NCBI GenBank assembly: GCA_963701665.1
Contig: OY969622.1
Span: forward strand, 992,001 to 1,056,000
DNA length: 64,000 nt
DNA from: Candidatus Babeliales bacterium
GTDB lineage: Bacteria; Babelota; Babeliae; Babelales; JANWKD01
Reading direction: 5' to 3'
This document shows positions 20,653 to 50,036 of this stretch, in pieces. The position numbers were made by a program, and so were the translations under genes. Position 1 is the first letter of the stretch. The number at the start of each line of letters is the position of its first letter. Under the pieces are notes generated by a model. That model searched no databases. It worked only from the letters and a program-made list of their open reading frames with translations, and was not told where the DNA came from.

Positions 20653-21837
20653 TTGTATTATTTTAATGTCTTTAATCTTCTAGGAATAAGCCTCGTGGTT
20701 TGCATCATTAAGAAGTGTTCGGTTGTATTTTTATTATTATATAATTTCCCCTCCTATTGCGCTGAAAATAAGCCCAATACTGATCCTCTTGAAAAATTAG
20801 ATGAGTTACTTGCTCGAATCCCTACCGACGAATTTCTTCAACATATCACTGACCAAGAAAAGCGTAAGTTTCTTAAAGCTCTTTTTGAGTACAATAAAGA
20901 CACCGAAAATAGCCCAAAAAACTCAGAAGGCTCTTATCATTTTGAACCCCGACAGCCAGCCCCATTAACTAATGAACAAAAAACAATCCCTATTCATGAA
21001 AGAATTAAGAAGAAATTTATTGGCGATCTTCCCGGTAGAATTAATGATTTAATTTTCTATTTTAGCAATCAGGAGCTATGTCTAAAAAATAACAAATCAA
21101 TCTACAATAGAATTTTGCTTCATGGGCAACCTGGCACAGGAAAATCTCATCTGGTAAAAGTACTTGCTGAAGAATTACAAGTCCCCTATTTTTATTTTCC
21201 TGCCTCATTTTTTGCTGATAAATACATTGGCGAAACCTCGAAAAAAATTCGTGCCGCATTTGCTTGCGCAAAGAACCTCAAAAAACCTGTTATTATTTTT
21301 ATTGATGAGATAGATGGGCTTGCATCTAAAAGAAAAGATAATACACATGACGAACAACGTGCATCATTAGTAACGCTTTTAACTGAAATGCAAGATCTAC
21401 AGCAAAATAAAAATATTTTTATTTTCGTTGCGACTAATGATCTTAAAGCATTAGATCCAGCCATAAAAGATCGCTTTGCAGGCTCAATATGCGAAATTAA
21501 ACCTCTCACCTTAGAAGAAAGAGCCGCAATGTTTAAAAAAGCATTTAAAGAACATGGAATTACAATTGAAGATAATTTTGCAAAAAGGCTAGCTGAAGTT
21601 ACTAATACAACAACCAAGGATGAAGAAACAAAAAATAAAATTTTAAATTTTTCCAACAGAGACATTGAAAGTATAGCAACAACTGTTGCTTTTCGCCAAT
21701 TTGCAGAATGCCATAAAGATAAAGCGAATTGCAATAAACACCTCTGTCATTATGCTCGTAAGGTAATTGATGAAACAGGCAAAAAAGCTTCATTCACAAC
21801 ATTTCATATTAACTATGAGTTTTGTGAAGGAATTTAA
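20653..21837 (+). CDS. AAA+ ATPase (classical clade) with signal-peptide-like N-terminus; first gene of toxin-like locus 1
   Basis: GQPGTGKS Walker A, DKYIG pore loop, IFIDEID Walker B, ATND, DPAIKDRF, FSNRDI; start possibly GTG at 20695. Confidence 0.85.
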   Translation: MYYFNVFNLLGISLVVCIIKKCSVVFLLLYNFPSYCAENKPNTDPLEKLDELLARIPTDEFLQHITDQEKRKFLKALFEYNKDTENSPKNSEGSYHFEPRQPAPLTNEQKTIPIHERIKKKFIGDLPGRINDLIFYFSNQELCLKNNKSIYNRILLHGQPGTGKSHLVKVLAEELQVPYFYFPASFFADKYIGETSKKIRAAFACAKNLKKPVIIFIDEIDGLASKRKDNTHDEQRASLVTLLTEMQDLQQNKNIFIFVATNDLKALDPAIKDRFAGSICEIKPLTLEERAAMFKKAFKEHGITIEDNFAKRLAEVTNTTTKDEETKNKILNFSNRDIESIATTVAFRQFAECHKDKANCNKHLCHYARKVIDETGKKASFTTFHINYEFCEGI

Positions 21838-24577: not shown

Positions 24578-25296
24578 ATAAAAATTTATTATTAAAAAAT
24601 ATTAATAAACAAATAGATCAATATAGAAAAAATAACTATGACATGACAACATTCAGTAATATACGAAAAACTTTTGATGAATATTTACATGTTCACCCAA
24701 AAGATACGGAAATTTGGCTGAGTTATGCTTTATGCATGTATAAATTAGCCGAAGGCAGTGATTATCCTGAAGAATGCTTAAGGAAAATATTAGAATACGA
24801 TCAAGACAATCTCTATGCTATAATGTTACTTGTCTATATTAATGCACACGATTCGTATATTAGTGACCAGCTTTTTAAACAGTTATGCAACTTAAAAAGC
24901 AATGACAATCAAATATTATCGATGATAGAATATGAAAAAATTTGGTACTATAAAGATGTTGAAAATTATGAAAGAGTATTAACTGATTCTGTTCAATTAT
25001 ATGATAAACATGTTTGGAATAATGTTAAATTGGGATATATTTATTTAGAAAAAGGAGAGATCAAAATAGGACAAGAATTAATATTAAAGGGGTTAAAAAA
25101 TGTTCAACTTGTTTATGATGATGATACTGTATATGACGAATTAAGTATCGAAGAATATTTTAACGAAACGATTAAAGGAATTCACTTAACAGATATCAAT
25201 TACAATTCTATTATTGATTCATTAGACCCAAATTATCTTAAGCCCATTATGGATTTGATTAATAGACATCTTGCTCGCAATTCATCTCAAGAATAA
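24574..25296 (+). CDS. TPR-like helical protein, candidate cognate immunity protein (copy A)
   Basis: Coupled to the toxin-like gene; no signal peptide; TPR-like pattern; paralogues downstream. Confidence 0.6.
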   Translation: MNKNLLLKNINKQIDQYRKNNYDMTTFSNIRKTFDEYLHVHPKDTEIWLSYALCMYKLAEGSDYPEECLRKILEYDQDNLYAIMLLVYINAHDSYISDQLFKQLCNLKSNDNQILSMIEYEKIWYYKDVENYERVLTDSVQLYDKHVWNNVKLGYIYLEKGEIKIGQELILKGLKNVQLVYDDDTVYDELSIEEYFNETIKGIHLTDINYNSIIDSLDPNYLKPIMDLINRHLARNSSQE

Positions 25297-26296
25297 TTTA
25301 AGAAAATGGGCTTATGCTGCTTCATACATCACTTTTACTATGTTAATTCATAAAGAATATTCTCAATATTTATATTTAATGATTAATAATTTTCCTATCA
25401 AATTACGCAACTATACCTTCGAATATCCTATTCCAATAAGAGTATGTGTTAAAAATTATGATAAATTCGAAGAAGTATTGGGTGATACAAAATATTTATA
25501 CATTAGTAAGGGCAGTCTTTCAGATACAACTGAATTAGTTGTCGATGATTATTCAAAAAAACTACTAATGTTACAAGTAATAGCCTCGAACCAAATTACC
25601 TTTCATGACCTTGATTTCGATATCGATAGTTATTTAAGCTATAATTCTTACATAGCCATAAATATTACAAATGATTCTTTTGAAAAATGGGAAAAATATC
25701 TTCCTGCATTAGATACCCAACCAAAAATACATGTTTTTAATAGCCTTATTGTATTAATAATAGATGAAAATAAATGCCCCGCTTATATGTTTTCAGAAAA
25801 TAATAAATTTGGCGTTATAACCAATAAAGACTTAAACATTGCGGCCTTTTTTATAAACAATATTACTGAAAAAGATAAAAAAATCATCAAAGAACATGCA
25901 AACTATCTTAATTCACCAAATCAAGAAAGTGCATTTCCCTTTAACAAATGCAAAACAACAATTATGGAACATAAAAATTATTTAATAAAAAAAATTATAG
26001 AGCTTGAAAATGTCAATTTATGGGATGTTATTTATTATGGTCTTGAACGAAAATTAATCAATAATAATTTTGTAATAGAATCTGCTATTGCTATGTTAGA
26101 GCATAATAAAACATCTGATAATATTACTCTTGAAATAGCAAGCCTGCTTAATCATGAATTAGAAAAAGTATCTATTTTACTCAACGAAAAAGTAAATAAA
26201 GATGAAGTTATGATTAATAAAGGACCTTTTTATAATAAAATTTGGTTATATCTTTCAGTTGCTTCAGATATGTGTGCAGCAAAAATTATCAAATAA
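25271..26296 (+). CDS. Hypothetical two-domain protein; C-terminal part DUF2247-like, immunity-type
   Basis: W.VIYYGL..KLI...FVI...A...LEIASL...KIWLYLS pattern; start uncertain. Confidence 0.5.
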   Translation: MLAIHLKNNLRKWAYAASYITFTMLIHKEYSQYLYLMINNFPIKLRNYTFEYPIPIRVCVKNYDKFEEVLGDTKYLYISKGSLSDTTELVVDDYSKKLLMLQVIASNQITFHDLDFDIDSYLSYNSYIAINITNDSFEKWEKYLPALDTQPKIHVFNSLIVLIIDENKCPAYMFSENNKFGVITNKDLNIAAFFINNITEKDKKIIKEHANYLNSPNQESAFPFNKCKTTIMEHKNYLIKKIIELENVNLWDVIYYGLERKLINNNFVIESAIAMLEHNKTSDNITLEIASLLNHELEKVSILLNEKVNKDEVMINKGPFYNKIWLYLSVASDMCAAKIIK

Positions 26297-26317
26297 AAAG
26301 AAATATTTTTATCAGAT

Positions 26318-27037
26318 ATGATAAACAAAGATCTATTGCTAAAAAATATAAGCTTACAAATGGATCAACATAAGAAAAATAATTATGACTTAACAACATT
26401 TATCACCATACAGAAAAGCTTTGATCAATATTTAAACCTTCATCCTTACGATACGGAAATTTGGCTAAAATATGCATTATGCATGTATGATTTAGCCGAA
26501 GGAAGTGATTATCCTGAAGAGTGCTTAAGAAAAATCTTAGAATATGATCAAAATAATCTCTCTGCTACGATGCTTTTAGTTTACATTAATGCGCATGATT
26601 CCCATATTAGTGATCAGCTTTTTAGGCAATTATGCGCCTTAAAAAGCGATGATAATGAAATACTATCAATGATTGAATATGAAAAAATTTGGTACTATAA
26701 AGATGATGAAAATTATGAGAAAGTATTAGTTAATTCGGTTAGATTGTGCAACAAACATGTTTGGAATAATGTTAATTTAGGAAGATTGTATATTACTAAG
26801 GGAGAATTTAAAAAAGGTCAAGAGCTAATATTAAAAGGATTAGAGAATATTAAGCTTATTTATAATAATGATACCATATACGATGAACTAAGCGTAGAAG
26901 AATACTTTAATGAAACAATCAAGGGAATTCATTTAAGTAGATCAAATTATAATTGTATTATTGGTTCATTAGATCCAAACTATTATAAACCAATCATGGA
27001 TCTAATTAACAAACATCTTAACCAATCCAAAGACTAA
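26318..27037 (+). CDS. TPR-like immunity paralogue (copy B)
   Basis: Aligns end to end with 24574-25296 (LAEGSDYPEECLRKILEYDQ, EEYFNETIKGIHL). Confidence 0.65.
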   Translation: MINKDLLLKNISLQMDQHKKNNYDLTTFITIQKSFDQYLNLHPYDTEIWLKYALCMYDLAEGSDYPEECLRKILEYDQNNLSATMLLVYINAHDSHISDQLFRQLCALKSDDNEILSMIEYEKIWYYKDDENYEKVLVNSVRLCNKHVWNNVNLGRLYITKGEFKKGQELILKGLENIKLIYNNDTIYDELSVEEYFNETIKGIHLSRSNYNCIIGSLDPNYYKPIMDLINKHLNQSKD

Positions 27038-27101
27038 TTTCTGATCTATAAAAAAAGAAAGCAGATCAGTTAGCATAAAAATCATCAAGGACTTTTTCAT
27101 A

Positions 27102-27830
27102 ATGAACAAAGATCCATTGTTAAAGAATATAAACTTACAAATGAAGCAATATAAAAAAAGCAATTATAATCCCTCTATATTTTTTAATATTCAAAAAACA
27201 TTTGATGAATATTTAAACGTCTATCCTAAAGATACGGACGTTTGGCTAAGTTATGCATTATGTATGTATAAATTGGCTGAAGGTGAAGATCTTGCCGAAA
27301 ATTGTTTAAAAAAGATATATGAATATGACAAAAGCAATGTTTATGCAACTATGTTGCATGCATATATAGCTGCTCATGATTCTCATATTGATGATGAATT
27401 ATTTGAAAAATTATGTAATGTAAAAACACACAACCTTGAATTACAATCAATGATTGAATATTTAAAAAGTTATTATTATTTCTTGAAAAATGATACCTTG
27501 AATGAAAAGGTATTACAAAATTCTGTTGCATTATGCGATAAACATGTTTGGAACCTTGTCAATTTAGGTAGAATTTATATAAAAAAAGGCGATTACAAAG
27601 AAGGGCAAAGATTAATCAAAAAAGCCCTATCGAACATCGAATATACTTATGATGAACATCCAATTGAAGATCAGTTAGATCTTAATGAGTATTTTAATGA
27701 AACTATTAAAGGAATTCACTTAACAGATAGTAACTACAATTCTATTATTGATTCACTTGATCCAGACTACCTTAAGCCAATCATGGATTTGATCAACAAA
27801 CATATGAATCTACCAAAAGATGAATTTTAA
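27102..27830 (+). CDS. TPR-like immunity paralogue (copy C)
   Basis: Aligns end to end with copies A and B; AAGGA RBS. Confidence 0.65.
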   Translation: MNKDPLLKNINLQMKQYKKSNYNPSIFFNIQKTFDEYLNVYPKDTDVWLSYALCMYKLAEGEDLAENCLKKIYEYDKSNVYATMLHAYIAAHDSHIDDELFEKLCNVKTHNLELQSMIEYLKSYYYFLKNDTLNEKVLQNSVALCDKHVWNLVNLGRIYIKKGDYKEGQRLIKKALSNIEYTYDEHPIEDQLDLNEYFNETIKGIHLTDSNYNSIIDSLDPDYLKPIMDLINKHMNLPKDEF

Positions 27831-38303: not shown

Positions 38304-40457
38304 ATGATAGTGAAATTAAAACTACATCCATTACATTTAATTATAGCATTTTTCATTCCAAGCATCTTTTACGGAATGTCTGAGCCAAAAATTGCTAAGC
38401 AGCACTCGATCAAAGATTACGGAGAGTTATATTCACAACAAGGTCTTAGAAGCCTACAAGCAATTTGTTTAGGCGTTATAGCAGATAATATTAAAGATAC
38501 TATTGATACAAAAGATCCATTAAATGATAAGCCTTTAATTGAAGAAATCTTAAAGCAAGTATCAGATTACGTCCCACACTTGTTAGAGTATTGGAAGGCA
38601 CATACGCAACCAACATGGAAATTCTTAACACGAGTACCCAATAATATAGATGTAAAGTGGTACAATTCAAAATTGGCTATCTGGTTTGATTCTAAATTCG
38701 ACAAAATTGGCATTTTGCATAGAGATATTGTTAGTTATAAAGATAACCCATTTACGGGAGATTTTGACTGCATTACTGGCAGTAAAGACAATACTTGCAT
38801 TGCAATAAGCAAAAAAAATAAAATAAGAATTTTTTCAGGTAACCATCCATATGAAACTATCCATCGTTTTGAATTGCCTGATACTGATGCTGTTACATCA
38901 CTCGTTTTTTCTCCCGATAAAAATGCTCTTGTCGTAGGCAGTTCAGATGGTAGCATTTATTATATTTTTTTGAATAAACTCAGTTCCTATCCTATGTTAA
39001 CAGAAAAGCATCCTACATCATCAAGCATAAAACATCTTACTTATGCCCCAAATGGCACATACTTTATTTCAATTGACGGGAAAGGCAATGCACTCAAATG
39101 GTATTTTTCATTACATTGTCCTTTATCATCGCATCCTGTATTCCTAGATGGTCCCGTCTTCTATAGCATTATTTCTTTGGATAGTAAGTTCATTTTTTTT
39201 GATAGCTCTTTAGCGCACAAGAAAAATATACAACCCCAAGGATTCATATTCGATGTTAATGATGAAAAAATAATACTTTTTGAAAATGTAGATATTCGTG
39301 GTGTAACTCAAGGGAATAATTTTTTTGGCATCCAATATGAACATAGAGAAAAAACTGTTGCTCGTGACATGGGCAGTTATCTGGCCGCAGCTATTGAAGT
39401 GGAGCTTATTCCTTGGCTTGTAGCAATTGATGTAAAAGGAAATTTTCAAAAATTCTCGTACAATAAGAAAGTGACGACGCTAATCAGTCCGACCAATCTT
39501 TTAGATAGCATGATGTGTTGTGTCTATCAAAATCAAAAATCTTATGACACTTTTTTTTGTTGTTCAGCAAAACCAACGTTAGATCAATTATTATTCAAAC
39601 TTGCCCTAGAAGCAGCACTGAAACATAATAAAACAGCTCATACAAAATCCTTACTCTCACATTCTATATTTTCAACATTTGAACCACACACTGAACAGCA
39701 CACATTACGAGAAAGAATTGATTTGACTCTCTCCAAAGTACATCCTCCATTAGTTGCCCTCCATTTTGTTTATACGCATATCGACCAATTACTACAAACT
39801 AACAAACCGTTCGATACCGTATTGAATCCTGATATGTTAGATGGTTATGACAATAATATTTTAGAGATGATTCATTATCTTACTCAGGAAACAGTTCGTT
39901 CGTGGTTCTCAAAAAAAATAAATCAACAGACTAAATTAATACACACATTAAATAACTTTGAACTTGAAGGAACGCAATATTTGTTATCAGTTAATAGGCA
40001 GTTTGTTTTTGACACTTTTAACACTATAGTAAATGCTGCTAAAAATAATTTTAATGCGCTCAAAACAATACAAAAATCAGGTATAGAAAGAAAATTACGC
40101 ACGTTTACAACTAACACAAAAAGTATCTTGTCAACGGCGGATCATCTTGATACCTTAATTAAACTTAAGAATGAGAGTTTATTACAAGAGGGACGCTATT
40201 ATGGGGGTGAAATTTCTGATTACTACAATCTCGACATAGCAAAACATATGAAGAATTGTATATATAAATTGGAACGATCAGTACCTCCATCTTATAGAAG
40301 CATGGATGAAATTTTACCTAATACTTTATTTGGTCAAGCAGTTAAAGCGTCAGAAGATAGTATTCAAAGCTATGCATCAAGCGTAACGTCTCCTGATAAA
40401 ATGAAGATTTTTCCACGTCTTTTATACAAACATGCACATCTGCAATGCACAAAGTAA
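38304..40457 (+). CDS. Exported WD40-like protein with BC-box-like motif and helical C-terminal region
   Basis: Signal ending FYG-MSE; RSLQAICLGVI; VTSLVFSPD..LVVGSSDGSI and IKHLTYAPNGTYFISIDGKG..KW. Confidence 0.65.
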   Translation: MIVKLKLHPLHLIIAFFIPSIFYGMSEPKIAKQHSIKDYGELYSQQGLRSLQAICLGVIADNIKDTIDTKDPLNDKPLIEEILKQVSDYVPHLLEYWKAHTQPTWKFLTRVPNNIDVKWYNSKLAIWFDSKFDKIGILHRDIVSYKDNPFTGDFDCITGSKDNTCIAISKKNKIRIFSGNHPYETIHRFELPDTDAVTSLVFSPDKNALVVGSSDGSIYYIFLNKLSSYPMLTEKHPTSSSIKHLTYAPNGTYFISIDGKGNALKWYFSLHCPLSSHPVFLDGPVFYSIISLDSKFIFFDSSLAHKKNIQPQGFIFDVNDEKIILFENVDIRGVTQGNNFFGIQYEHREKTVARDMGSYLAAAIEVELIPWLVAIDVKGNFQKFSYNKKVTTLISPTNLLDSMMCCVYQNQKSYDTFFCCSAKPTLDQLLFKLALEAALKHNKTAHTKSLLSHSIFSTFEPHTEQHTLRERIDLTLSKVHPPLVALHFVYTHIDQLLQTNKPFDTVLNPDMLDGYDNNILEMIHYLTQETVRSWFSKKINQQTKLIHTLNNFELEGTQYLLSVNRQFVFDTFNTIVNAAKNNFNALKTIQKSGIERKLRTFTTNTKSILSTADHLDTLIKLKNESLLQEGRYYGGEISDYYNLDIAKHMKNCIYKLERSVPPSYRSMDEILPNTLFGQAVKASEDSIQSYASSVTSPDKMKIFPRLLYKHAHLQCTK

Positions 40458-43142: not shown

Positions 43143-44531
43143 ATGCAGCTTCAAACTCTTCTTAATTCCAAAAACACCGATACACCATTAGCTTTAACAT
43201 TTTTATTCCGCGCCACCTTAGTTTTCAGCTTGTGGTGTAGTGCAACATACTGCATGGAAGACCCGCTTAATGTAAAACAGAAATTACCAACAGGTTCTAA
43301 TAAAAATTCTGGTATCAAAAAAGAACTTATAGGTCTAATACAAAGTTTAAAACAGGAACAAAATGGCCTTATAGGCTCAGCTCAATTTGGTGTTGAAAGG
43401 GAAGAAGATCAAGAACCTTTAAGAAGTGAATTGGTTGAAGAACTCATTAATGAAAGCCCTCATCGAATAAAAAAACTTATTAGTGATATCAATAAAAGAC
43501 AAAATCCTGACGATTTATTTCAGAAAGCTCCTTATATGAGCAATATACATGTTTTAGTCGGTTCTCCAGGAACTGGTAAAAGCAGTCTAGCAAAGGCTAT
43601 TGCAAAAAAATGTTCTATACCTTACCTTTTTGTCGCGATTCAATTGTTATCAAATCAATATCAGCATTCTGGCTCAAGCAATCTTGCAAGTATTCTTGGC
43701 CCCTTATCAAGGAGTAAAAAGCCCGAGGTAATTATACTGGATGAGCTACAGACAATTGTCAAAAAAAGAGGTAAAGAAGATTACGATATGGAAGGCGCTC
43801 AATCATTGTGGAAATTCCTTGATACTTTTAAAAACAAAAAAAATTTATTAATCATCGCCACTGCAAATGATCTTGATATTTTACCTGATCAAGTCCGTAG
43901 TCGCATCAAAGTAGGAATACACGACATAAGTCTTCCCGATCAATCTAAAAGAGAAAAAATTATTTCTTATTATTTACATCTTTATTCGCCTTCCTTGCAA
44001 GCTGTTCCCTCACCATCTGAAATTCAGTTTTTAGGATATAAAACCAAAAAATTCACACCGCGTGACTTAGAAACCATGATACGAGCCGCATTATCCAATG
44101 CTCACGACCGTTCAGGCGATGAAATTTTAGTTCTTGATAAAAAAGACTTTGATGCCGCTATTGCACTGGTAACAAAAGATGATGAAAGATTTTCAATCTC
44201 TAAAAGAACTTACAAAATGATTAAGCCACATATAGGAACTACTATTCAAATTATGGGCCCACTAACCATACAAATAATAGTCAATAGTTTTATGCAATAT
44301 TGCGGCATGAATCAACAAGTCCTGTTTCATAACGAAAGCATAGGGTTGCAAAGAGAGGGATTAGACTTACAAAAGAAAAGCTTTGCACAACAAGAGAGAT
44401 TCCACAATGAAAACAAAAATCTCACCTTGGAACATTTCAGAACACAGCTCATATGTCAAATTGTAGGCAATATACCTGGAGCTATTTATCATTGGTATTA
44501 TGGTAGTTCCACTCAACCAAAACCCCAATAA
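43143..44531 (+). CDS. AAA+ ATPase with signal-peptide-like N-terminus and C-terminal hydrophobic/coiled-coil tail; first gene of toxin-like locus 2
   Basis: Signal ending TYC-MED; GSPGTGKS, IILDELQ, ATAND, VRSRI, FTPRDL. Confidence 0.85.
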   Translation: MQLQTLLNSKNTDTPLALTFLFRATLVFSLWCSATYCMEDPLNVKQKLPTGSNKNSGIKKELIGLIQSLKQEQNGLIGSAQFGVEREEDQEPLRSELVEELINESPHRIKKLISDINKRQNPDDLFQKAPYMSNIHVLVGSPGTGKSSLAKAIAKKCSIPYLFVAIQLLSNQYQHSGSSNLASILGPLSRSKKPEVIILDELQTIVKKRGKEDYDMEGAQSLWKFLDTFKNKKNLLIIATANDLDILPDQVRSRIKVGIHDISLPDQSKREKIISYYLHLYSPSLQAVPSPSEIQFLGYKTKKFTPRDLETMIRAALSNAHDRSGDEILVLDKKDFDAAIALVTKDDERFSISKRTYKMIKPHIGTTIQIMGPLTIQIIVNSFMQYCGMNQQVLFHNESIGLQREGLDLQKKSFAQQERFHNENKNLTLEHFRTQLICQIVGNIPGAIYHWYYGSSTQPKPQ

Positions 44532-44543
44532 CCAAAATTACTC

Positions 44544-47500
44544 TTGAATACATATTTTATGAAAACATTCAAACTATATTCTATCTTTGCCATTTTTGCG
44601 TATCTAACCTCAACTGCCATGGATAACAAAATAGTTATCCATGGACCTACTTACGATACTGATAATGAACAAAGAAAATTCATTACTCCTTTTCAACGAA
44701 ATACCGCAGCAAATTTTATTCCGCCTGAAAGAGATATTATTGCTATCCCAACATCATCCAAAATCAATACGGCACTTTCAGCAATACAGTGCATAGCATC
44801 ATTAGAACAGGCACATTTAGAACAACAATTTAATACGTGTGTTGATATATTAAGCCAAGCAAATCTTTCCGAGTCAATAAGTGCTATTTTATCTCTTGGT
44901 GATCTTCAATTTCAACGGTGCAACATACTTGATGAATCTTCTGTTGAATATCAGTATTATTTGAAAACAACAATTAATGACCTCAATTATATTCTATATG
45001 ATAAAACAGGCTCTCTTCAATTAACATCAATACCTTCTCAGCAATATGACTCTGCAAAAGTAATAACCGATGACTTTTTAAAACCATTACGGCCAGACGA
45101 TTATAAAGAAATTGTAGAAAAGCTTGCTTTGTTAAATCGACCAGGATTTGCAGAAGTTCATCAAGAACTGACACAAGGAGGTATACGGCCATACTTCCGC
45201 GCATTAGGTAGAGGAATTTCTGCATGTTTCTCTTATCAAGAATCATCTGATAGGTTGAGAAAACTCATCAATGGCAATGATGTTAGAAAAGATCTTATAA
45301 AAATTAAGGAATATGGAGAACAATTCAAATTTTTGCAAGCAAAGGCTATTGTTGAAAAATATGATAATGCTCAATCATCAAGTGATAAAAAAATAGCTGA
45401 TATTGCTCAACAACTTTATCTTGAATATATAGACAAGACATATGATCTTTTGATCGAGAGACTTCACTTAACACCATCACAAGAATTAAAACAAGAATTA
45501 CGTGACCTCATACCTTATATAGTTGAAAAACCCGCAAAAGCAGCCGAACTCTTTTATGAAAAATTAGAACAATACAAAAATAATGAAAAACAATATGGAC
45601 TTTTACAACAGCTCATCAATAAGGTTGGATTACCTAAATTTTATAGCTATGATCGTACATGTTTAAATGCTATCGAAATTCCCACTACTATTCGTGATAG
45701 CAATCACATCAAAGAACAACAAACATTATTTTCACTTGCGACATGTCCCACACATGACAAAGAAGCCCTTGCTTTAGGAATGAGATATGTTGTTAGATCA
45801 TGCCAAACCGAATCATCATTATACACTCATTATGCCAAAGCACTGCTTCATAGCGTTCAATCAAAAGATCCCGATACGAAACTTTTGAAATGTACCGATT
45901 TTACTCAAACATTTGACGTCAAAGCAAAACAGGATATGATCCGTCGAATGATTCCTGCCATCTGCAACATAACAAATGAGATTAACCAACTCAAACAGCA
46001 ACCAGGATCAGAAGAACGCATTAAGCAATTACAATCACTACGAACAACACTACATGATGCATTCCAAGCTTTGGATGATACAGCATCGAAACGAATATCA
46101 TTTAATAAGGTAATAAGTGAGGCAATACGCGAACTCAATGTACTTAATCGTTCGGAGATGATCCTCACAAAATCACAAGAAGATCTGCGTGCTTTACTGC
46201 AAAGCGTTGACCTTCTTTATACAGGAAAAACAGAAACACATAATCTTCAAGTATTGCAAAAATTACAACCTCAATCTAGCCATGCTCAACCTGATTTAAG
46301 CAAAACCTATGAGCAGTATTTGATGCGGGAGACACTTGATAATAAAGATTTATGGACTGAGGCGAATGACTCTCTGCGCAATGAGGTTATTAAGCACTAT
46401 ATAGCATCATCACAAGATGAGGCTCTCCAAGAAATAGAAACAATTATTTTAAATCGTGATACCAATTGCACCATAGCTAAAAATATTTTTACTGTTATTC
46501 AAGATAGCGCTACAATAATCGCAACTGATTTTCCTCTCAAAGAAATTGGTGATTATGCTCATGAAACGATTACTCATCCAACAGCATATTTATTAAATAT
46601 CGCAAAAGATTTTGCACAACTAGGTCATTTTCTGAAATCATTTGTTTCTGATTATGCAAAAAATAATATCGCTTCTTTAGGTGCAAGCAAAAAAGATGCT
46701 TATGAATTTAGCAAAAAATATAATGAGGCTGTTCATAAATTTGCTGAAGGCTGGAAAAACTTAAGCCTAGAGCATAAAAAGGAATTTGTAGCAAAGCTAA
46801 TCGTTGATCTTGCTGCAAATAAAGCATTAGGCATTGGCGCTAAACTTATCAGCAACATTATGGGAGACTGCATCATATCATTTGTTGATACACTTCCCCC
46901 TTCAATTTCAGGTGGCGGTGCAGTCGCTATTACACGAGATATCGCTTTAATGCCTGAACTTGTCGCAGAAGTAGCGGAAGTTATTCAAGCAGGTGGGGCA
47001 GCTGTTGGGTCAACGTCAGTGGCAGTTGGTTCAACAGGAATACAAGGTATAGTTACATTGTATGAGACAACCCCAGGTAAAAATAGCAAATCATCAAAAA
47101 TAATACCCCAAGGCTCATATGAATTGCCTATTGAAAAATTCAAAGCATATACAACGATTGTTGAAGATGGTAATCCCAAAATTATTGAAAGTACCTTTAG
47201 TACTGAAGAAGCATTAGAAATTTTGAATAATTCTTCGGAATTAAAAATGTTAAATTCTCGAATCGAAGAATTAAAGAAAGCAACACAGGATATCAGATTC
47301 GGAATTTCAGATGAGAGATTCAAAGATGTCCCAAAATTATATGAAAAAGCAATGCATCAAGCTGAACAATTATATGAAAGAGCAAGAAAAAATAATAACG
47401 ATATTCAAAAAATTGCCTACAATATTGGTATATCTGAAAAAGTAATAGAAAAAATTAAAAATCATATTTTTATTGAAGAACATATTCTCGGTCATGGCAA

Positions 47501-47708
47501 CGAACAATTTTTATCAAAATTTTTGACTGATATTGATATTGCCGAAAGTTGGGAACGACTTATAAATGGTAATTTTGTACAATCAGATTTGATTTTGTTA
47601 CAGCACGAATTAACCGAATCACTCCTGATGCAAGGAACAAAATTAAATTATGGTTCTGCTCATTATAAAATCGTAAATAAAATATTTAATTGGAATGCTA
47701 CCTTGTAA
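44544..47708 (+). CDS. Large exported protein with putative C-terminal toxin domain
   Basis: Signal ending STA-MDN; Gly/Ala-rich hydrophobic stretch then tip Y..R..DI.KIA.N.G.S..I.KIK.H.F...H...F..D..IA.SW.RL..G...D..LL.HE..E...Y..AH...NW, a pattern I recall from Rhs/MuF-type toxin C-termini. Confidence 0.65.
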   Translation: MNTYFMKTFKLYSIFAIFAYLTSTAMDNKIVIHGPTYDTDNEQRKFITPFQRNTAANFIPPERDIIAIPTSSKINTALSAIQCIASLEQAHLEQQFNTCVDILSQANLSESISAILSLGDLQFQRCNILDESSVEYQYYLKTTINDLNYILYDKTGSLQLTSIPSQQYDSAKVITDDFLKPLRPDDYKEIVEKLALLNRPGFAEVHQELTQGGIRPYFRALGRGISACFSYQESSDRLRKLINGNDVRKDLIKIKEYGEQFKFLQAKAIVEKYDNAQSSSDKKIADIAQQLYLEYIDKTYDLLIERLHLTPSQELKQELRDLIPYIVEKPAKAAELFYEKLEQYKNNEKQYGLLQQLINKVGLPKFYSYDRTCLNAIEIPTTIRDSNHIKEQQTLFSLATCPTHDKEALALGMRYVVRSCQTESSLYTHYAKALLHSVQSKDPDTKLLKCTDFTQTFDVKAKQDMIRRMIPAICNITNEINQLKQQPGSEERIKQLQSLRTTLHDAFQALDDTASKRISFNKVISEAIRELNVLNRSEMILTKSQEDLRALLQSVDLLYTGKTETHNLQVLQKLQPQSSHAQPDLSKTYEQYLMRETLDNKDLWTEANDSLRNEVIKHYIASSQDEALQEIETIILNRDTNCTIAKNIFTVIQDSATIIATDFPLKEIGDYAHETITHPTAYLLNIAKDFAQLGHFLKSFVSDYAKNNIASLGASKKDAYEFSKKYNEAVHKFAEGWKNLSLEHKKEFVAKLIVDLAANKALGIGAKLISNIMGDCIISFVDTLPPSISGGGAVAITRDIALMPELVAEVAEVIQAGGAAVGSTSVAVGSTGIQGIVTLYETTPGKNSKSSKIIPQGSYELPIEKFKAYTTIVEDGNPKIIESTFSTEEALEILNNSSELKMLNSRIEELKKATQDIRFGISDERFKDVPKLYEKAMHQAEQLYERARKNNNDIQKIAYNIGISEKVIEKIKNHIFIEEHILGHGNEQFLSKFLTDIDIAESWERLINGNFVQSDLILLQHELTESLLMQGTKLNYGSAHYKIVNKIFNWNATL

Positions 47709-47719
47709 TTGGAGTTAAT

Positions 47720-48031
47720 ATGGGAAAAGGAATAGATATCATAAAATATAAAAGCTCAAATAATATTCATTATTACTATATAGCATTTGGTGATTTAATT
47801 CCTGTGTTTTATATAGCCATTAATCCCATTAAAAATACTGTTTCATTTTTTAAAGATAATGATTTTGCTCAAGAACCAATAGGGATCATTGATTTTAACA
47901 ATCCAGATCCTTTTAAATCGATACCAAAAATTCCTGATGTACACAAAAATTATATTTTAATGACAATTACTAGGGCGCGTTTAGCGATAAACAAAGGAGA
48001 ATTTCATGATTATATCGGCTTTTCAAGTTAA
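47720..48031 (+). CDS. Small protein, candidate cognate immunity protein
   Basis: GGAG RBS, ATG 11 nt after the toxin-like stop, 103 aa, no signal peptide, very AT-rich. Confidence 0.55.
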   Translation: MGKGIDIIKYKSSNNIHYYYIAFGDLIPVFYIAINPIKNTVSFFKDNDFAQEPIGIIDFNNPDPFKSIPKIPDVHKNYILMTITRARLAINKGEFHDYIGFSS

Positions 48032-48148: not shown

Positions 48149-49090
48149 ATGAAAGCACCTAAAATAATTCAACCGACAGTTAGCATAGATTGTGACTGTT
48201 GGTGCACTTCGAAACTGGCCGTTGAAAACAATAAATTTTATTTCGGTACCTTCGGTGGTACACTCAATTTTGGAGATATTAAGACTAAAAATATTATTGA
48301 AACTCCTACTAAAGAACAAATCGAATCAGTCGCAGTATATAAAGATTATGTTTTCGCCGCTGGCGACACTTTTATAGGTATGTTTGACAAAGTAACAGGT
48401 AAACTATTATATGAATTTCCCCAAGGACATTTGGGATGTATTCATGGCTTGATTACGTACAAAAATACTTTAATATCTGGATCCGATGAAATTAAAATTT
48501 GGGATTTAGAAACTAAAAAATGCTTGGCAACCTTAGAATGCTCTAGAGAATTAGTACAATCTCTTATTATAAAAGATAACTTTCTGATTTCTGGTCATGA
48601 TAAAGGAGTCATTAGAATATGGAATCTTATTTCAAAAGAATTAGTTCAAATATTGCATGAACATAGTTGGAGTGTTAAATCTCTCGCCATAAATGGTAAT
48701 ACCATCATTTCAGCCACTGGCGATCAAACAATCAAAATATGGGACTTTCATTCTGGAAAATGCCTTAATACTTTAGTTGGCCATAATACACCGATTACAT
48801 CAATTGCTCTACATAAAAATTATCTCTTTTCAAGCTCAGAAGATGCATTACTAAAAATATGGGATTTAAAACAAGGACTGTGTTTAAATAGTTTGAAATT
48901 AGATGACCAAGTTCTTCAACTCGTTGCTGATCAATATTTTTTATATACTATTTCGGACTACTCCTTTTTCCATCAATGGAGGTTAGATGATTTGATTACT
49001 CATGAACCTCTCGAAGCATTAATTCCTAAGGATTATTATGTAGAAAAATCTAGATTAACACATATTTCCTATGTATATAAAGGTGATTAA
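48149..49090 (+). CDS. WD40-repeat beta-propeller protein
   Basis: Repeated GH...LISGS.D..IKIWD units (IKIWDLE, IRIWNL, IKIWDF, LKIWDL). Confidence 0.9.
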   Translation: MKAPKIIQPTVSIDCDCWCTSKLAVENNKFYFGTFGGTLNFGDIKTKNIIETPTKEQIESVAVYKDYVFAAGDTFIGMFDKVTGKLLYEFPQGHLGCIHGLITYKNTLISGSDEIKIWDLETKKCLATLECSRELVQSLIIKDNFLISGHDKGVIRIWNLISKELVQILHEHSWSVKSLAINGNTIISATGDQTIKIWDFHSGKCLNTLVGHNTPITSIALHKNYLFSSSEDALLKIWDLKQGLCLNSLKLDDQVLQLVADQYFLYTISDYSFFHQWRLDDLITHEPLEALIPKDYYVEKSRLTHISYVYKGD

Positions 49091-49092
49091 TT

Positions 49093-49515
49093 ATGGAAAC
49101 CCAACATTATGTTACTGAAACAATTAAACCTCATACTTATCATTGGACCATAACAATCACCGCACTTATATTCTTGATAAGCTTGTTATATTTTATTTTT
49201 CAATTTTTTCCAACCTATTATCATTTACGCTTAGTTTTTAAAACAGCCGAATATAATTTTACTCTTGGCAATTATACAGAAGCAATAAAAGGATATACCC
49301 TCATTTTAAAAAATTTTAACAGCTTTAAAATGGCAAAAATAAAAAAGGTACAAGGATACTTTCCATTAGGCAAAAAACAAAAAGCGCTAAAATTACTATC
49401 TAATATGGAACTAACTCATAATGATTTAGAGTTATTAAAAAAATATATACCATTTGATTGTCAACATCATTTTCAACCAAAAACGAACATCATAGGATAT
49501 AAAGTCATATGCTAG
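49093..49515 (+). CDS. Single-TM protein with TPR-like motif
   Basis: N-terminal TM; AEYNFTLGNYTEAIKGY. Confidence 0.6.
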   Translation: METQHYVTETIKPHTYHWTITITALIFLISLLYFIFQFFPTYYHLRLVFKTAEYNFTLGNYTEAIKGYTLILKNFNSFKMAKIKKVQGYFPLGKKQKALKLLSNMELTHNDLELLKKYIPFDCQHHFQPKTNIIGYKVIC

Positions 49516-50036
49516 CACTATTAACATTTCCAGGAATAATCATTCATGAAATTGGGCATAGATTTTTCTGTGATATTCTGAATATAAAAGTTTATGAAGT
49601 CATGTATTTTAATCTTGCACGGGATATTAGTGGTCATGTTATACATGAAATAACCCAAAATGTTCATAAACAATTTCTTATTGCTATGGGTCCTCTTCTT
49701 ATTAATACTTTTTTTTGCATGTTATTCACTTTCCCCTATAGCTTGCCTAACTATTGGTTTGGAGAACAATTAGAATACTCACAATTTATAAATGCATTAT
49801 TTTTAATCATGTATTGGGTAGGATTTAGTGCTGGTGTCCATGCTTTTCCAAGCAATATAGACTTAAACAGCTTAGAAAAAACATCTAAAGAATATTATTC
49901 TGACTCTGTATTAACAAATTCTATCTTAGGAAGCTTACTTAATTTTTTTCGTATAATTGAACCAATAAAATTTTTATTGCAATTGATGTATGCTTTCTCA
50001 ATTAGTCAATTTTTACCATCATTAATATTGCCATAA
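49509..50036 (+). CDS. Membrane zinc metalloprotease-like protein (HExxH, M50-like)
   Basis: FPGIIIHEIGH, IAMGP, AFPS..D within hydrophobic segments. Confidence 0.7.
   Translation: MLALLTFPGIIIHEIGHRFFCDILNIKVYEVMYFNLARDISGHVIHEITQNVHKQFLIAMGPLLINTFFCMLFTFPYSLPNYWFGEQLEYSQFINALFLIMYWVGFSAGVHAFPSNIDLNSLEKTSKEYYSDSVLTNSILGSLLNFFRIIEPIKFLLQLMYAFSISQFLPSLILP

What the first reader, a model, noticed from the sequence alone, without database searches (positions are those of the whole stretch)
43143..48031. Locus 2: same AAA+ / toxin / immunity architecture with a different HExxE...H tip
Seen: a second signal-bearing AAA+ (TYC-MED) lies 12 nt upstream of a 1054-aa exported protein. Its last ~115 aa (about 47355-47708) carry KIK.H.F...H, IA.SW.RL..G, LL.HE..E and Y..AH..NW, and a 103-aa gene with its own RBS starts 11 nt later. 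I recall this tip pattern from C-termini of Rhs/phage MuF-type toxins; its activity is unknown to me. The two AAA proteins are clearly diverged from each other, so this is a recurring module and not a recent copy. Inference: each toxin has its own cognate ATPase.
Basis: partly seen in the sequence, partly recalled or inferred. Interest (0 to 1): 0.82.

Follow-up and report, generated by a model that had tools for sequence, protein, structure and literature searches.

The report
Dependentiae toxin-immunity cassette with AAA+ partner
This is a bacterial "polymorphic toxin" gene with its antidote gene, carrying an uncatalogued but widespread toxin tip, and it sits behind an unusual exported-looking AAA+ ATPase whose link to such toxins has not been described.

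Summary
An AAA+ gene (43143-44531) lies 12 nt before a 1054-aa signal-bearing protein (44544-47708). A 103-aa gene with a GGAG ribosome-binding site starts 11 nt after it (47720-48031).

The last ~117 aa are a real, widespread domain: 1421 clusters at 50% identity match it. It ends within 15 residues of the C-terminus in 135 of the 150 best matches. Its carriers are unrelated: MuF and minor-capsid phage proteins, LXG, WXG100, PT-TG, PT-HINT, a hemagglutinin-repeat protein, and many Dependentiae signal-peptide proteins.

No Pfam, NCBIfam or PDB sequence match was found. The AlphaFold model is confident (pLDDT 96.4) but has no structural relative.

An IMM2-family gene lies directly downstream in 16 of 24 tip loci in other Dependentiae genomes, sometimes as tandem arrays. 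Small downstream genes in Firmicutes phages and plasmids look distantly related.

In a same-genus genome the syntenic locus keeps the carrier but holds a different tip and immunity gene. The cassette has 27-28% GC, against 35% for the carrier.

The AAA+ link is recurrent but not obligatory. It holds for 3 of 3 toxin loci in this genome and 9 of 24 tip loci elsewhere. The same AAA+ type also precedes an ankyrin protein. Its role is untested.

Verdict: a new variant of a polymorphic toxin system.

The parts
43143..44531 (+). AAA+ ATPase gene (462 aa), classical AAA clade. It has a signal-peptide-like N-terminus and a hydrophobic, Q/H-rich C-terminal region.
   Evidence: Pfam AAA E 1.7e-24. Closest solved sequences are Cdc48/p97 D2, VAT, NSF, Rix7, Msp1 and FtsH. 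Walker A is GSPGTGKS and the pore-loop region reads SNQYQHSG.
43143..43253 (+). N-terminal hydrophobic segment of the AAA+, ending ...SATYC just before Met-Glu-Asp.
   Evidence: Read from the sequence. Hydrophobic segment at residues 16-32. The same junction type occurs in the other AAA and toxin genes and was noted in earlier finding e1-2087300.
43551..43913 (+). AAA domain core (residues 137-257).
   Evidence: Pfam PF00004 envelope.
44544..47708 (+). Polymorphic-toxin carrier protein (1054 aa from TTG 44544, 1049 aa from ATG 44559). Public gene calling starts it at the internal ATG, giving 1029 aa.
   Evidence: P0002 is the window's own product called from MDNK.... No Pfam family matches the whole protein.
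44544..44618 (+). Signal-peptide-like N-terminus ending ...LTSTA | MDNK.
   Evidence: Read from the sequence. Not tested with a dedicated signal-peptide predictor.
45882..47129 (+). Conserved pre-toxin carrier module (residues ~447-862). It ends in a Gly-rich hydrophobic stretch, ...VGSTSVAVGSTGIQGIVTLYE, after which the paralogue and orthologue diverge.
   Evidence: 28% identity to the 793-aa toxin at C1:577158-579539. 53% identity to the same-genus toxin in L096. Alignment of the junction.
47100..47708 (+). Variable C-terminal cassette (residues ~853-1054), with low GC.
   Evidence: GC is 0.284, against 0.349 for the rest of the gene and 0.373 for the genome. The point of divergence is seen.
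47355..47705 (+). Toxin tip core domain (117 aa), with motifs K.H.F...H, W.RL, D..L..HE..E and H....NW.
   Evidence: AlphaFold2 pLDDT 96.4. No relative found in Pfam, NCBIfam, PHROGs or PDB.
47711..47714 (+). GGAG ribosome-binding site, 5 nt before the immunity ATG.
   Evidence: Read from the sequence.
47720..48031 (+). Candidate immunity gene (103 aa, no signal peptide).
   Evidence: Family members lie directly downstream of the tip in 16 of 24 other Dependentiae loci. AlphaFold2 pLDDT 90.3: five-stranded sheet plus a C-terminal helix. GC 0.269.

Best explanation
Locus 2 is a three-gene module of a Dependentiae (Babeliales) parasite: an AAA+ gene, a toxin gene and an immunity gene.

The 1054-aa protein is a Sec-signal polymorphic toxin. 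It has a fast-evolving N-terminal part, a conserved pre-toxin module ending in a Gly-rich ...STGIQ... junction, and an exchangeable ~200-aa C-terminal cassette. The cassette core (last 117 aa) is an uncatalogued toxin domain shared with phage MuF, T7SS (LXG/WXG100), PT-TG, PT-HINT and hemagglutinin-repeat toxins. The 103-aa cytoplasmic protein encoded 11 nt downstream is its cognate immunity protein. Tip and immunity gene move together as a low-GC cassette.

Shown here: domain mobility, position at the C-terminus, a conserved downstream partner, immunity arrays, and cassette replacement at a syntenic locus.

Inferred:
- The tip is an enzyme acting on a cytoplasmic target. Its invariant His, Glu and Asp residues (H37, H43, D78, H84, E85, E88, H103) suggest a metal-dependent hydrolase, possibly a nuclease. 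I put that activity at about 35%.
- The immunity protein blocks the tip by binding it.
- The toxin leaves the cell by Sec and then by one of the two secretin systems encoded in the genome.
- The upstream AAA+ (pore-loop aromatic kept, Walker A and B intact) is a substrate-threading partner for the protein encoded after it, acting on the carrier part and not on the tip. I put that functional coupling at about 50%.
For: Spread and position of the tip:
- 1421 clusters at E<=1e-3 and 485 at E<=1e-10.
- In the 150 best matches the domain ends <=15 aa from the C-terminus in 135, and <=30 aa in 145. Protein lengths run from 82 to 6656 aa.

Carriers:
- 30 of the 95 scanned proteins carry MuF, minor capsid 2, VG15, LXG, WXG100, PT-TG or PT-HINT domains. 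65 carry no such domain.
- tblastn finds the tip in 16 phage records and 6 plasmid records. These include CDMH1 gp4, Streptococcus prophages, a Priestia PT-TG protein and a Rhizobium hemagglutinin-repeat protein.

Distribution within the phylum:
- The tip is patchy: 25 of 261 genomes, and 0 of the 4 other genomes of the window's own family.
- Carriers of the tip mostly share no BLAST similarity with each other.

Immunity:
- An IMM2-family ORF lies 1-18 nt downstream in 16 of 26 loci, counting the window's own, and in 16 of 24 loci with longer flanks.
- Tandem arrays of 4, 3 and 2 copies occur in L042, L048 and L051.
- All 11 phage and plasmid loci examined have a 75-109-aa ORF at the same place.
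- CDMH1 gp5 hits the Dependentiae immunity profile at E 1.4e-6.
- A profile-profile comparison gives probability 83% and P 8.7e-6 over the C-terminal 30 columns.

Cassette swap in the same-genus genome G110:
- The flanking genes are orthologous (PPIase 72% identical, HEIGH membrane protein 45%).
- The G110 toxin keeps the pre-toxin module (53% identity) but ends in the tip type of the third G000 locus, followed by a DUF2247-like immunity gene.
- GC drops from 0.349 to 0.284 and 0.269 at the junction.

Sister loci:
- Locus 1's tip matches Ntox35 (23.9 bits, cut-off 23.6).

AAA+ linkage:
- G000 has four AAA+ genes of this type. Each lies directly upstream of a signal-bearing protein: three toxins and one ankyrin protein.
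- 9 of 24 other tip loci, from six further genera, have an AAA directly upstream.
- Of 33 AAA ORFs in 29 further loci, 24 have a same-strand ORF within -120 to +300 nt. 21 of these are not AAA genes.
- The AAA domain resembles threading unfoldases.

Export route:
- The genome encodes two secretins and two T2SSE-type ATPases, and no T6SS sheath protein was found.
Against: No toxicity or neutralisation data exist for any family member that I could find. The fold has no solved relative, so the activity is guessed from conserved residues alone.

8 of 24 tip loci lack an IMM2-family gene. Seven of those have a different small ORF in its place, and its relation to IMM2 was not tested.

The cross-phylum immunity homology rests on a 30-column match and one HMM hit in a tiny database.

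The AAA+ is absent upstream in 15 of 24 tip loci. It also precedes a non-toxin (ankyrin) gene. The closest relative of AAA2 in G110 (50% identity) has no same-strand downstream gene.

The N-termini of the AAA proteins look like ordinary Sec signals with a positive n-region. That would place an ATPase in the ATP-free periplasm, unless it goes on into the host or is also made from the internal Met.

My crude hydrophobicity score for signal peptides does not discriminate: 55-63% of all long ORFs pass it.

Related genomes are not independent counts.
Confidence: 0.8

Rival explanations
1. The AAA+ is an independent secreted effector acting on host proteins or membranes in the ATP-containing host cytosol. 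It sits next to toxins only because both lie in hypervariable islands of secreted-protein genes. There is no cognate relationship.
For: The AAA proteins carry Sec-type signals, and many have C-terminal hydrophobic tails. One precedes an ankyrin protein. The AAA2 relative in G110 stands alone. 15 of 24 tip toxins lack an upstream AAA. AAA genes also occur in tandem.
Against: The spacing is tight and same-strand (12 nt here; -16 to +106 nt in 8 other loci). All four AAA genes of this type in G000 are followed directly by a signal-bearing protein gene, in a genome I estimate (not counted here) to hold about 1200 genes. The AAA3a-TOX3 pair is conserved between G000 and G110.
Confidence: 0.3
2. The toxin is aimed at the protist host, not at rival bacteria. 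The immunity protein only protects the producer before export.
For: The organism belongs to an obligately host-associated phylum (names). Passages of Zhang et al. 2012 (PMC3482391) describe toxin-like effectors of amoeba symbionts used against hosts.
Against: Those host-directed effectors are described there as lacking immunity genes. Here immunity genes are conserved and amplified into arrays of 2-4 copies, next to a stand-alone tip gene in L042. That is the pattern of inter-bacterial conflict. The same tip rides on MuF, LXG and hemagglutinin-repeat carriers of free-living bacteria.
Confidence: 0.2
3. The tip is not a toxin. It would be a structural or regulatory domain, for example an HTH-like nucleic-acid binder of phage head proteins, and the small downstream gene would be an assembly partner.
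For: The first three helices give weak, non-significant similarities to sigma factors and HTH repressors. The most common recognisable carriers are phage head proteins. No activity is known.
Against: The tip also occurs at the end of LXG, WXG100, PT-TG, PT-HINT and hemagglutinin-repeat proteins, which are dedicated toxin carriers. Tandem arrays of the partner gene occur. The cassette is replaced by other toxin/immunity pairs at the same locus. Invariant His, Glu and Asp residues fit a catalytic site.
Confidence: 0.06

Closest known systems
MuF polymorphic toxins of temperate phages (Jamet et al. 2017, PMC5576092; passages read)
   Same: The same C-terminal domain ends 20 MuF or minor-capsid-2 proteins among the 95 carriers scanned and occurs in 16 phage records. 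A small gene follows directly. The paper reports that 89.4% of MuF toxin genes are followed by such an ORF.
   Different: TOX2 has no MuF domain and no phage context. Delivery is by a Sec signal, not by capsid packaging. The paper's list of known toxin domains does not, in the passages I read, name this one. Its 'Ct_MAD' domain is described for Proteobacteria phages, and I could not compare it with the tip because its profile is in supplements I did not open.
Classical polymorphic toxin systems with Sec-only ('T2SS class') export, PT-TG and LXG toxins (Zhang et al. 2012, PMC3482391; passages read)
   Same: Variable C-terminal tip after a conserved pre-toxin junction, immunity gene immediately downstream, polyimmunity arrays, and tips shared across secretion systems.
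   Different: The tip and the immunity family match no Pfam model, including the Ntox/Tox/Imm models derived from that study. The pre-toxin module does not match PT-TG at E<=10. A linked, signal-bearing AAA+ is not part of the described Sec-class systems. A search of that paper for 'AAA+' found nothing; one passage mentions a 'recycling AAA + ATP[ase]' for T6SS and PVC only.
Accessory AAA+ ATPases of toxin delivery machines: ClpV (T6SS), Pvc15 (PVC; PMC11495950, abstract seen) and EccA (T7SS; weak NCBIfam hit E 7e-4)
   Same: An AAA+ is genetically tied to toxin or effector genes. According to that abstract, Pvc15 recognises N-terminal signals of payloads.
   Different: By my recollection, those ATPases are cytoplasmic, lack signal peptides and are encoded once per apparatus. 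Here there is one small single-ring-type AAA per cargo gene, each with a Sec-like N-terminus and often a hydrophobic C-terminal tail, and no injection apparatus genes were seen nearby.
Membrane-anchored classical-clade AAA proteins (Msp1/ATAD1, FtsH, Cdc48 D2)
   Same: They are the best solved sequence relatives of the AAA domain (E 1e-23 to 1e-11). The pore-loop aromatic is retained. The layout is an N-terminal hydrophobic segment followed by one AAA domain.
   Different: There is no protease domain. The N-terminal segment looks like a cleavable signal rather than an anchor, and the C-terminal Q/H-rich region with a hydrophobic tail is specific to this group. Orthology was not shown.

Membership tests
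Polymorphic toxin system (sensu Zhang et al. 2012) | The same C-terminal toxin domain occurs on unrelated N-terminal carriers or secretion modes | tested here: met
   MuF, minor capsid 2, VG15, LXG, WXG100, PT-TG and PT-HINT in 30 of 95 carriers. Hemagglutinin-repeat protein. Dependentiae carriers are mutually dissimilar.
Polymorphic toxin system (sensu Zhang et al. 2012) | Small cognate immunity gene immediately downstream, conserved with the tip | tested here: met
   16 of 24 other Dependentiae loci. Arrays of 2-4 copies. Distant relatives behind phage and plasmid copies.
Polymorphic toxin system (sensu Zhang et al. 2012) | Different tips on the same carrier, with cassette replacement at one locus | tested here: met
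   TOX2 and TOX3 share residues 447-862 but not the tip. The syntenic G110 locus has another tip and immunity gene. GC drops at the junction.
Polymorphic toxin system (sensu Zhang et al. 2012) | The tip is toxic and is neutralised by the downstream protein | not testable with these tools
   Needs expression and rescue assays.
MuF toxin family | N-terminal MuF domain (PF04233 or PF06152) in a prophage head module | tested here: not met
   No Pfam family matches the 1054-aa protein. The neighbours are PPIases, WD40 genes and a membrane protein.
PT-TG pre-toxin domain (PF14449) | Match to the Pfam model just before the tip | tested here: not met
   No PT-TG hit at E<=10 for residues 433-879 or 701-879. 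The ...STGIQ... junction only resembles it by eye.
Zincin-type metallopeptidase toxins (HExxH) | HExxH motif and zincin fold | tested here: not met
   The motif is H-E-L-T-E, with invariant H84, E85 and E88. No zincin appears among the fold matches, but the fold search is inconclusive as a negative.
Any curated toxin domain (Pfam Ntox/Tox families, NCBIfam, PHROGs) | Profile match of the tip | tested here: not met
   Pfam gives 0 families at E<=10. NCBIfam gives 0. PHROGs gives only a weak hit to an unknown-function family, E 0.0088.
Classical AAA ATPase (PF00004) | Walker A, Walker B and pore-loop aromatic; profile match over the cut-off | tested here: met
   87.2 bits against a cut-off of 21.2. 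GSPGTGKS and QYQHSG are present. VIILDE is read from the sequence.
Known immunity families (Pfam Imm*, SUKH, DUF2247) | Profile match of the 103-aa protein or its relatives | tested here: not met
   IMM2 gives 0 families. Among 16 family members there are only single weak hits, such as Imm6 at E 0.028 in 1 of 16. The fold search best is Z 5.8, which is inconclusive.

The most novel reading that the evidence does not exclude
Dependentiae may have a per-cargo delivery accessory. Each large secreted toxin or effector gene is preceded by its own Sec-signal-bearing, classical-clade AAA+ unfoldase. This AAA+ would be exported with the cargo and use ATP outside the producer, in the host cytosol or at a rival's membrane, to strip the immunity protein or thread the toxin across a membrane. 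Alternatively, a cytoplasmic isoform made from the conserved internal Met would feed the toxin to Sec. In addition, the tip would be a new enzyme fold used by phage, T7SS, contact-dependent and Sec-dependent toxins alike.
Probability: 0.2. Interest if true: 0.85.

Novelty: new variant of a known kind. Interest (0 to 1): 0.62.

Why it matters
It defines a large toxin domain family and its immunity family that are absent from the Pfam, NCBIfam and PHROGs copies searched and have no solved relative in PDB. The toxin domain covers 1421 clusters at 50% identity, has a confident model with no solved relative, and has a short list of candidate catalytic residues. Both are ready for a simple toxicity and rescue test.

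It shows that obligately host-associated Dependentiae run classical, cassette-swapping toxin/immunity warfare. A full-text search for 'Dependentiae' together with 'polymorphic toxin' found 0 papers.

It also raises a concrete puzzle: why do ATP-dependent unfoldases with export signals sit one per cargo in front of secreted toxins and effectors? Answering that could reveal a new step in toxin delivery, or a new class of secreted AAA+ effectors.

Tried and rejected
- **Complex prediction.** The tip plus the immunity protein, both as alignments, gave no verdict (score 0.02). I draw nothing from it.
- **Expression data.** A search of public runs listed no RNA holder. Only four DNA metagenome runs held 5-8% of the sampled words.
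- **The search for related loci.** Alignments A1 and A2 were not accepted because they had no sufficiently conserved 7-10-column stretch. I used the genome search and tblastn of phage and plasmid records instead.
- **Word-indexed protein searches.** The search with the tip for longer proteins found only 3 proteins, one being the window's own. The search with the immunity alignment found only Dependentiae-like proteins. Both are limited by the word index.
- **Fold searches, tip.** No Foldseek PDB match at E<=0.001. VIA wide best Z 4.3. No BFVD match.
- **Fold searches, immunity protein.** No Foldseek match. Best Z 5.8, to an integron cassette protein, within noise.
- **ESM Atlas.** Only 'hypothetical protein' clusters, plus a weak lead (0.83) to clusters partly carrying Pyocin_S. 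Not followed up.
- **Candidate identities considered and dropped.** Ntox28 (motif [DN]HxxE), Tox-HTH (motif RxxY) and Imm6/YwqJ deaminase. The motifs do not fit and no Pfam hit supports them. Ct_MAD of Jamet et al. could not be compared.
- **Promoter and terminator scan.** Promoter-like sites were not above the shuffled expectation, and no terminator was found.
- **Signal-peptide control.** A hydrophobicity score for the genes downstream of AAA genes proved non-discriminating. A better control on the 'Met-first' junction was not run (see steps_to_tell).
- **Co-phylogeny.** A co-phylogeny of AAA and toxin N-termini was not attempted. The N-terminal regions are not alignable across genera, and the similar pairs come from the same genera.

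Full report
**What is there.**
The window is G000:C1:992001-1056000 of a single-contig 1.34-Mb genome with 37% GC.

The coordinates of the finding are correct.
- 43143-44531 encodes a 462-aa protein with a Pfam AAA domain (E 1.7e-24, residues 137-257).
- Its stop is followed after 12 nt by TTG 44544, with ATG 44559 five codons later, opening a 1054-aa frame that ends at 47708.
- 11 nt further on, behind GGAG, ATG 47720 opens a 103-aa gene.
- Both larger proteins begin with a hydrophobic segment that ends just before Met plus an acidic residue (…SATYC|MED, …LTSTA|MDN). I saw it again in the other AAA and toxin genes.
- Public gene calling starts the toxin at that internal Met (P0002, 1029 aa).

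**The tip is a real, mobile domain.**
An exhaustive phmmer search with the last 117 aa against 1.84 billion representatives gave 1421 clusters at E<=1e-3 and 485 at E<=1e-10.
- A profile built from 32 short members locates the domain in all 150 listed proteins. It ends within 15 residues of the C-terminus in 135 of them and within 30 in 145.
- Protein lengths spread widely: 39 are under 200 aa, 57 are 200-500, 44 are 500-1000 and 10 are 1000 aa or more.
All are intact in the window's copy.

Of the 95 carriers of 250 aa or more that I scanned with Pfam (38, 57):
- 15 have Phage_Mu_F (one below the cut-off);
- 5 have Phage_min_cap2;
- 2 have VG15;
- 2 have LXG;
- 1 has WXG100;
- 3 have PT-TG;
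- 2 have PT-HINT (one below the cut-off);
- 65 have no informative family, and many of these start with Dependentiae-style signal peptides;
- none has an Rhs domain.

tblastn adds 16 phage records (13 Streptococcus, Clostridium phage CDMH1 filed twice, 1 Staphylococcus) and 6 plasmid records. The plasmid hits include a Priestia 'pre-toxin TG' protein and a Rhizobium 'hemagglutinin repeat-containing protein'.

The predicted refuting case, a tip found only in full-length orthologues, is excluded.

**The tip is uncatalogued and has no known fold.**
- Pfam gives nothing even at E<=10. NCBIfam gives nothing. PHROGs gives only a weak hit to an unknown-function family. PDB sequence searches with the single sequence and with the profile give only coiled-coil or designed-protein noise.
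- AlphaFold2 with the 32-row alignment gives pLDDT 96.4 and pTM 0.89: seven helices plus a beta-hairpin at residues 43-54.
- Foldseek against PDB and BFVD finds nothing at E<=0.001. The all-against-all VIA search peaks at Z 4.3, below what unrelated models typically reach.
- ESM Atlas neighbours are all 'hypothetical protein'.
- In the passages I read of Zhang et al. 2012 and Jamet et al. 2017, no listed domain fits the motif.
- The activity is therefore inferred only. The cluster of invariant His, Glu and Asp residues suggests a metal-dependent hydrolase. The cytoplasmic immunity protein, and the tip's use by phage-capsid, T7SS and hemagglutinin-repeat carriers, suggest a cytoplasmic target. 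I put 'nuclease or other metal-dependent hydrolase' at about 35%.

**The downstream gene is the conserved partner.**
The tip occurs in 25 of 261 genomes held for the phylum (19 of 145 genera) and in none of the 4 other genomes of the window's own family.
- In 26 loci with a strong tip match, a ~100-aa same-strand ORF starts -44 to +18 nt from the toxin stop in almost all.
- phmmer with the window's 103-aa protein finds 16 of these ORFs at E<=6e-5.
- A profile built from them finds family members in 16 of the 26 loci, counting the window's own.
- With longer flanks, 16 of 24 loci outside G000 have a family member.
- Tandem arrays occur: four copies behind a stand-alone 139-aa tip gene (L042), three copies (L048) and two copies (L051).
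- Eight of the 24 loci lack a family member. Seven of those have a different 93-114-aa ORF at that position, which I did not analyse further.

Outside the phylum, all 11 phage and plasmid loci examined have a 75-109-aa ORF overlapping or within 13 nt of the toxin stop.
- CDMH1 gp5 hits the Dependentiae immunity profile at E 1.4e-6, in a database of 12 sequences.
- hhalign of ten Firmicutes ORFs against the Dependentiae alignment gives 83% probability and P 8.7e-6 over the C-terminal helix and its '…FPE…' tail.
- I read this as suggestive of one very divergent immunity family travelling with the tip.

The immunity model is confident (pLDDT 90.3): a five-stranded sheet plus a helix. It has no clear structural relative and no Pfam family.

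**Cassette exchange is directly visible.**
Within G000, TOX2 residues 447-862 are 28% identical to a 793-aa toxin at C1:577158-579539. That toxin ends in another tip and is followed by a DUF2247-type immunity gene.

In the same-genus genome G110 the locus is syntenic.
- The divergent PPIase neighbour is 72% identical and the downstream HEIGH-motif membrane protein is 45% identical.
- Between these flanks lie an AAA gene (31% identical to AAA2), a 1096-aa toxin, and a DUF2247-like gene.
- The toxin's N-terminal part is 24% identical to TOX2 and its pre-toxin module is 53% identical. Its tip is of the TOX3 type.
- All four aligned toxins diverge right after a Gly-rich '…VGS..VA..(S/T)(T/A)G(I/A)Q…' stretch.

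In the window, GC falls there from 0.349 in the carrier to 0.284 in the cassette and 0.269 in the immunity gene. The genome average is 0.373.

Locus 1 of the window behaves alike. Its tip matches Ntox35 marginally (23.9 bits against a cut-off of 23.6). It is followed by three TPR-like paralogues and an ORF containing a DUF2247 match, with GC 0.264.

Taken together these are the defining behaviours of a polymorphic toxin system. What is missing is any toxicity test.

**The AAA+.**
G000 has four AAA genes of this type. The other AAA hits in the genome are FtsH, Lon and similar. Each of the four lies directly upstream, on the same strand, of a signal-bearing protein gene: TOX1, TOX2, TOX3 and a 557-aa ankyrin-repeat protein.

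Among the 24 tip loci of other genomes:
- 8 have an AAA immediately upstream, with gaps of -16 to +106 nt. L036 has two in tandem.
- A ninth (L031) has an AAA in front of a toxin broken into three ORFs.
- One (L050) has two divergent AAA genes.
- The rest have unrelated neighbours, or their contigs end.
- The nine positive loci come from six genera, seven with G000, so they are not nine independent events.

AAA2-like genes occur in 58 of 261 genomes at E<=1e-15, with up to six per genome. Of 33 AAA ORFs in 29 further loci, 24 have a same-strand ORF within -120 to +300 nt. Of those 24, 21 are not AAA genes, and most run off the 1.5-kb flank. My hydrophobicity score for their N-termini does not discriminate, so I claim only by eye that many show the signal-plus-Met junction.

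The AAA domain is closest to Cdc48/p97 D2, VAT, NSF, Rix7, Msp1/ATAD1 and FtsH. It keeps Walker A, Walker B (read from the sequence) and an aromatic pore-loop residue: KYIGE in AAA1, QYQHSG in AAA2 and EYINSG in AAA3b. This fits a substrate-threading enzyme.

Nearly all of these AAA proteins have a Sec-like N-terminus with a positive n-region, and many have a hydrophobic C-terminal tail. This is the puzzle: an ATPase exported to the periplasm would have no ATP. I see three possibilities.
- It travels on with its cargo into the host cytosol.
- A cytoplasmic isoform is also made from the conserved internal Met.
- The adjacency is not functional.

One stray observation bears on the second possibility. 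The G110 orthologue of AAA3a keeps the signal-like segment in frame but has ATT where the start codon should be, so its first ATG, GTG or TTG is the post-signal Met.

The AAA diverges as fast as the toxin N-terminus (31% and 24%, against 72% for the flanking PPIase). It also stays with the carrier when the tip changes (AAA3a-TOX3 in G000 and G110). If it is cognate to anything, it is therefore cognate to the carrier part, not to the tip. I put real functional coupling at about 50%.

**Export.**
The genome encodes two large secretins and two T2SSE-type ATPases, and no T6SS sheath protein was found (genome completeness 93.6%). Sec followed by a secretin system is therefore an available route. 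This is inference.

**Comparison and novelty.**
The toxin/immunity part is a member of the known kind 'polymorphic toxin system'. It shares its tip with MuF, LXG/WXG100, PT-TG, PT-HINT and hemagglutinin-repeat toxins. It is not a member of any of those carrier families. Neither its tip nor its immunity family is in Pfam, NCBIfam or PDB.

Three things go beyond the known pattern.
- A widespread toxin domain with a confident but unmatched fold.
- Classical cassette-swapping toxin/immunity loci in Dependentiae. A full-text search for 'Dependentiae' plus 'polymorphic toxin' returned 0 papers. A search for 'Dependentiae', 'AAA', 'signal peptide' and 'effector' returned nothing relevant in the 12 titles and abstracts listed.
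- The recurrent one-per-cargo, signal-bearing AAA+. Known AAA+ partners of toxin delivery (ClpV, Pvc15, EccA) belong to injection or T7 machines and, by my recollection, lack signal peptides.

I therefore rate it a new variant of a known kind, with interest 0.62.

Supplements of PMC5576092 (the Ct_MAD profile and domain tables) and Additional File 1 of PMC3482391 were not opened. They could name this tip.

Noticed in passing
window 20653-27830: Locus 1: AAA (394 aa), then a 936-aa toxin whose tip matches Pfam Ntox35 marginally (23.9 bits against 23.6). It is followed by three TPR-like paralogues (63-75% identical) interrupted by a 341-aa ORF with a DUF2247 match. This looks like a mixed polyimmunity array with very low GC (0.264).
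   Followed up: partly
G000:C1:575513-583228 (outside the window): A third module: AAA (538 aa), then a 793-aa toxin sharing the TOX2 pre-toxin module but with another uncatalogued tip, then a 174-aa DUF2247-type immunity gene, then a second AAA (416 aa, 36% identical to AAA2), then a 557-aa signal-bearing ankyrin-repeat protein.
   Followed up: partly
L097 3275-3364 (G110:C3): The orthologue of AAA3a keeps a signal-peptide-like segment in frame upstream of its first ATG, but ATT stands where the start codon is expected. This could be a non-canonical start, a sequencing error, or a hint that the post-signal Met is itself used as a start.
   Followed up: no
window 43143-43260, 44544-44625, 20653-20760; C1:575513, 577158, 580274, 581555: Every AAA and cargo gene of these modules shows the 'small residue | Met-acidic/polar' junction after the hydrophobic N-terminal segment. 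This matches earlier finding e1-2087300.
   Followed up: partly
L042 344-2161 (G242:C1): A stand-alone 139-aa tip gene followed by four tandem immunity paralogues. This is a carrier-less toxin cassette with a homogeneous polyimmunity array.
   Followed up: no
L011, L012, L017, L018, L020, L022, L030: In seven tip loci the downstream 93-114-aa ORF is not recognised by the IMM2-family profile. It may be a second immunity family for the same tip.
   Followed up: no
window 49509-50036: A 175-aa membrane protein with a HEIGH motif and no Pfam family. It is conserved (45% identity) at the same side of the toxin locus in the same-genus genome, so it marks the edge of the variable region.
   Followed up: partly
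window 38304-40457 and 48149-49090: Two WD40-repeat proteins flank the locus. The second lies between the immunity gene and the conserved HEIGH gene, and no ORF of 150 aa or more occupies that interval in G110.
   Followed up: no
P0003 (394 aa): By eye, its N-terminus resembles the pre-toxin module of the third G000 toxin (…DYL..TVSNPQDY.LKTVEGYKSVAG…), while its C-terminus is this finding's tip (56% identity). This would be another carrier/tip recombinant.
   Followed up: no
AAA proteins in L049, L051, L097, L036, and window 44300-44531: Many of the cargo-linked AAA proteins end in a Q/H/N-rich coil followed by a hydrophobic, Gly-rich tail, resembling a tail anchor or glycine zipper. No family is known for it.
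   Followed up: no
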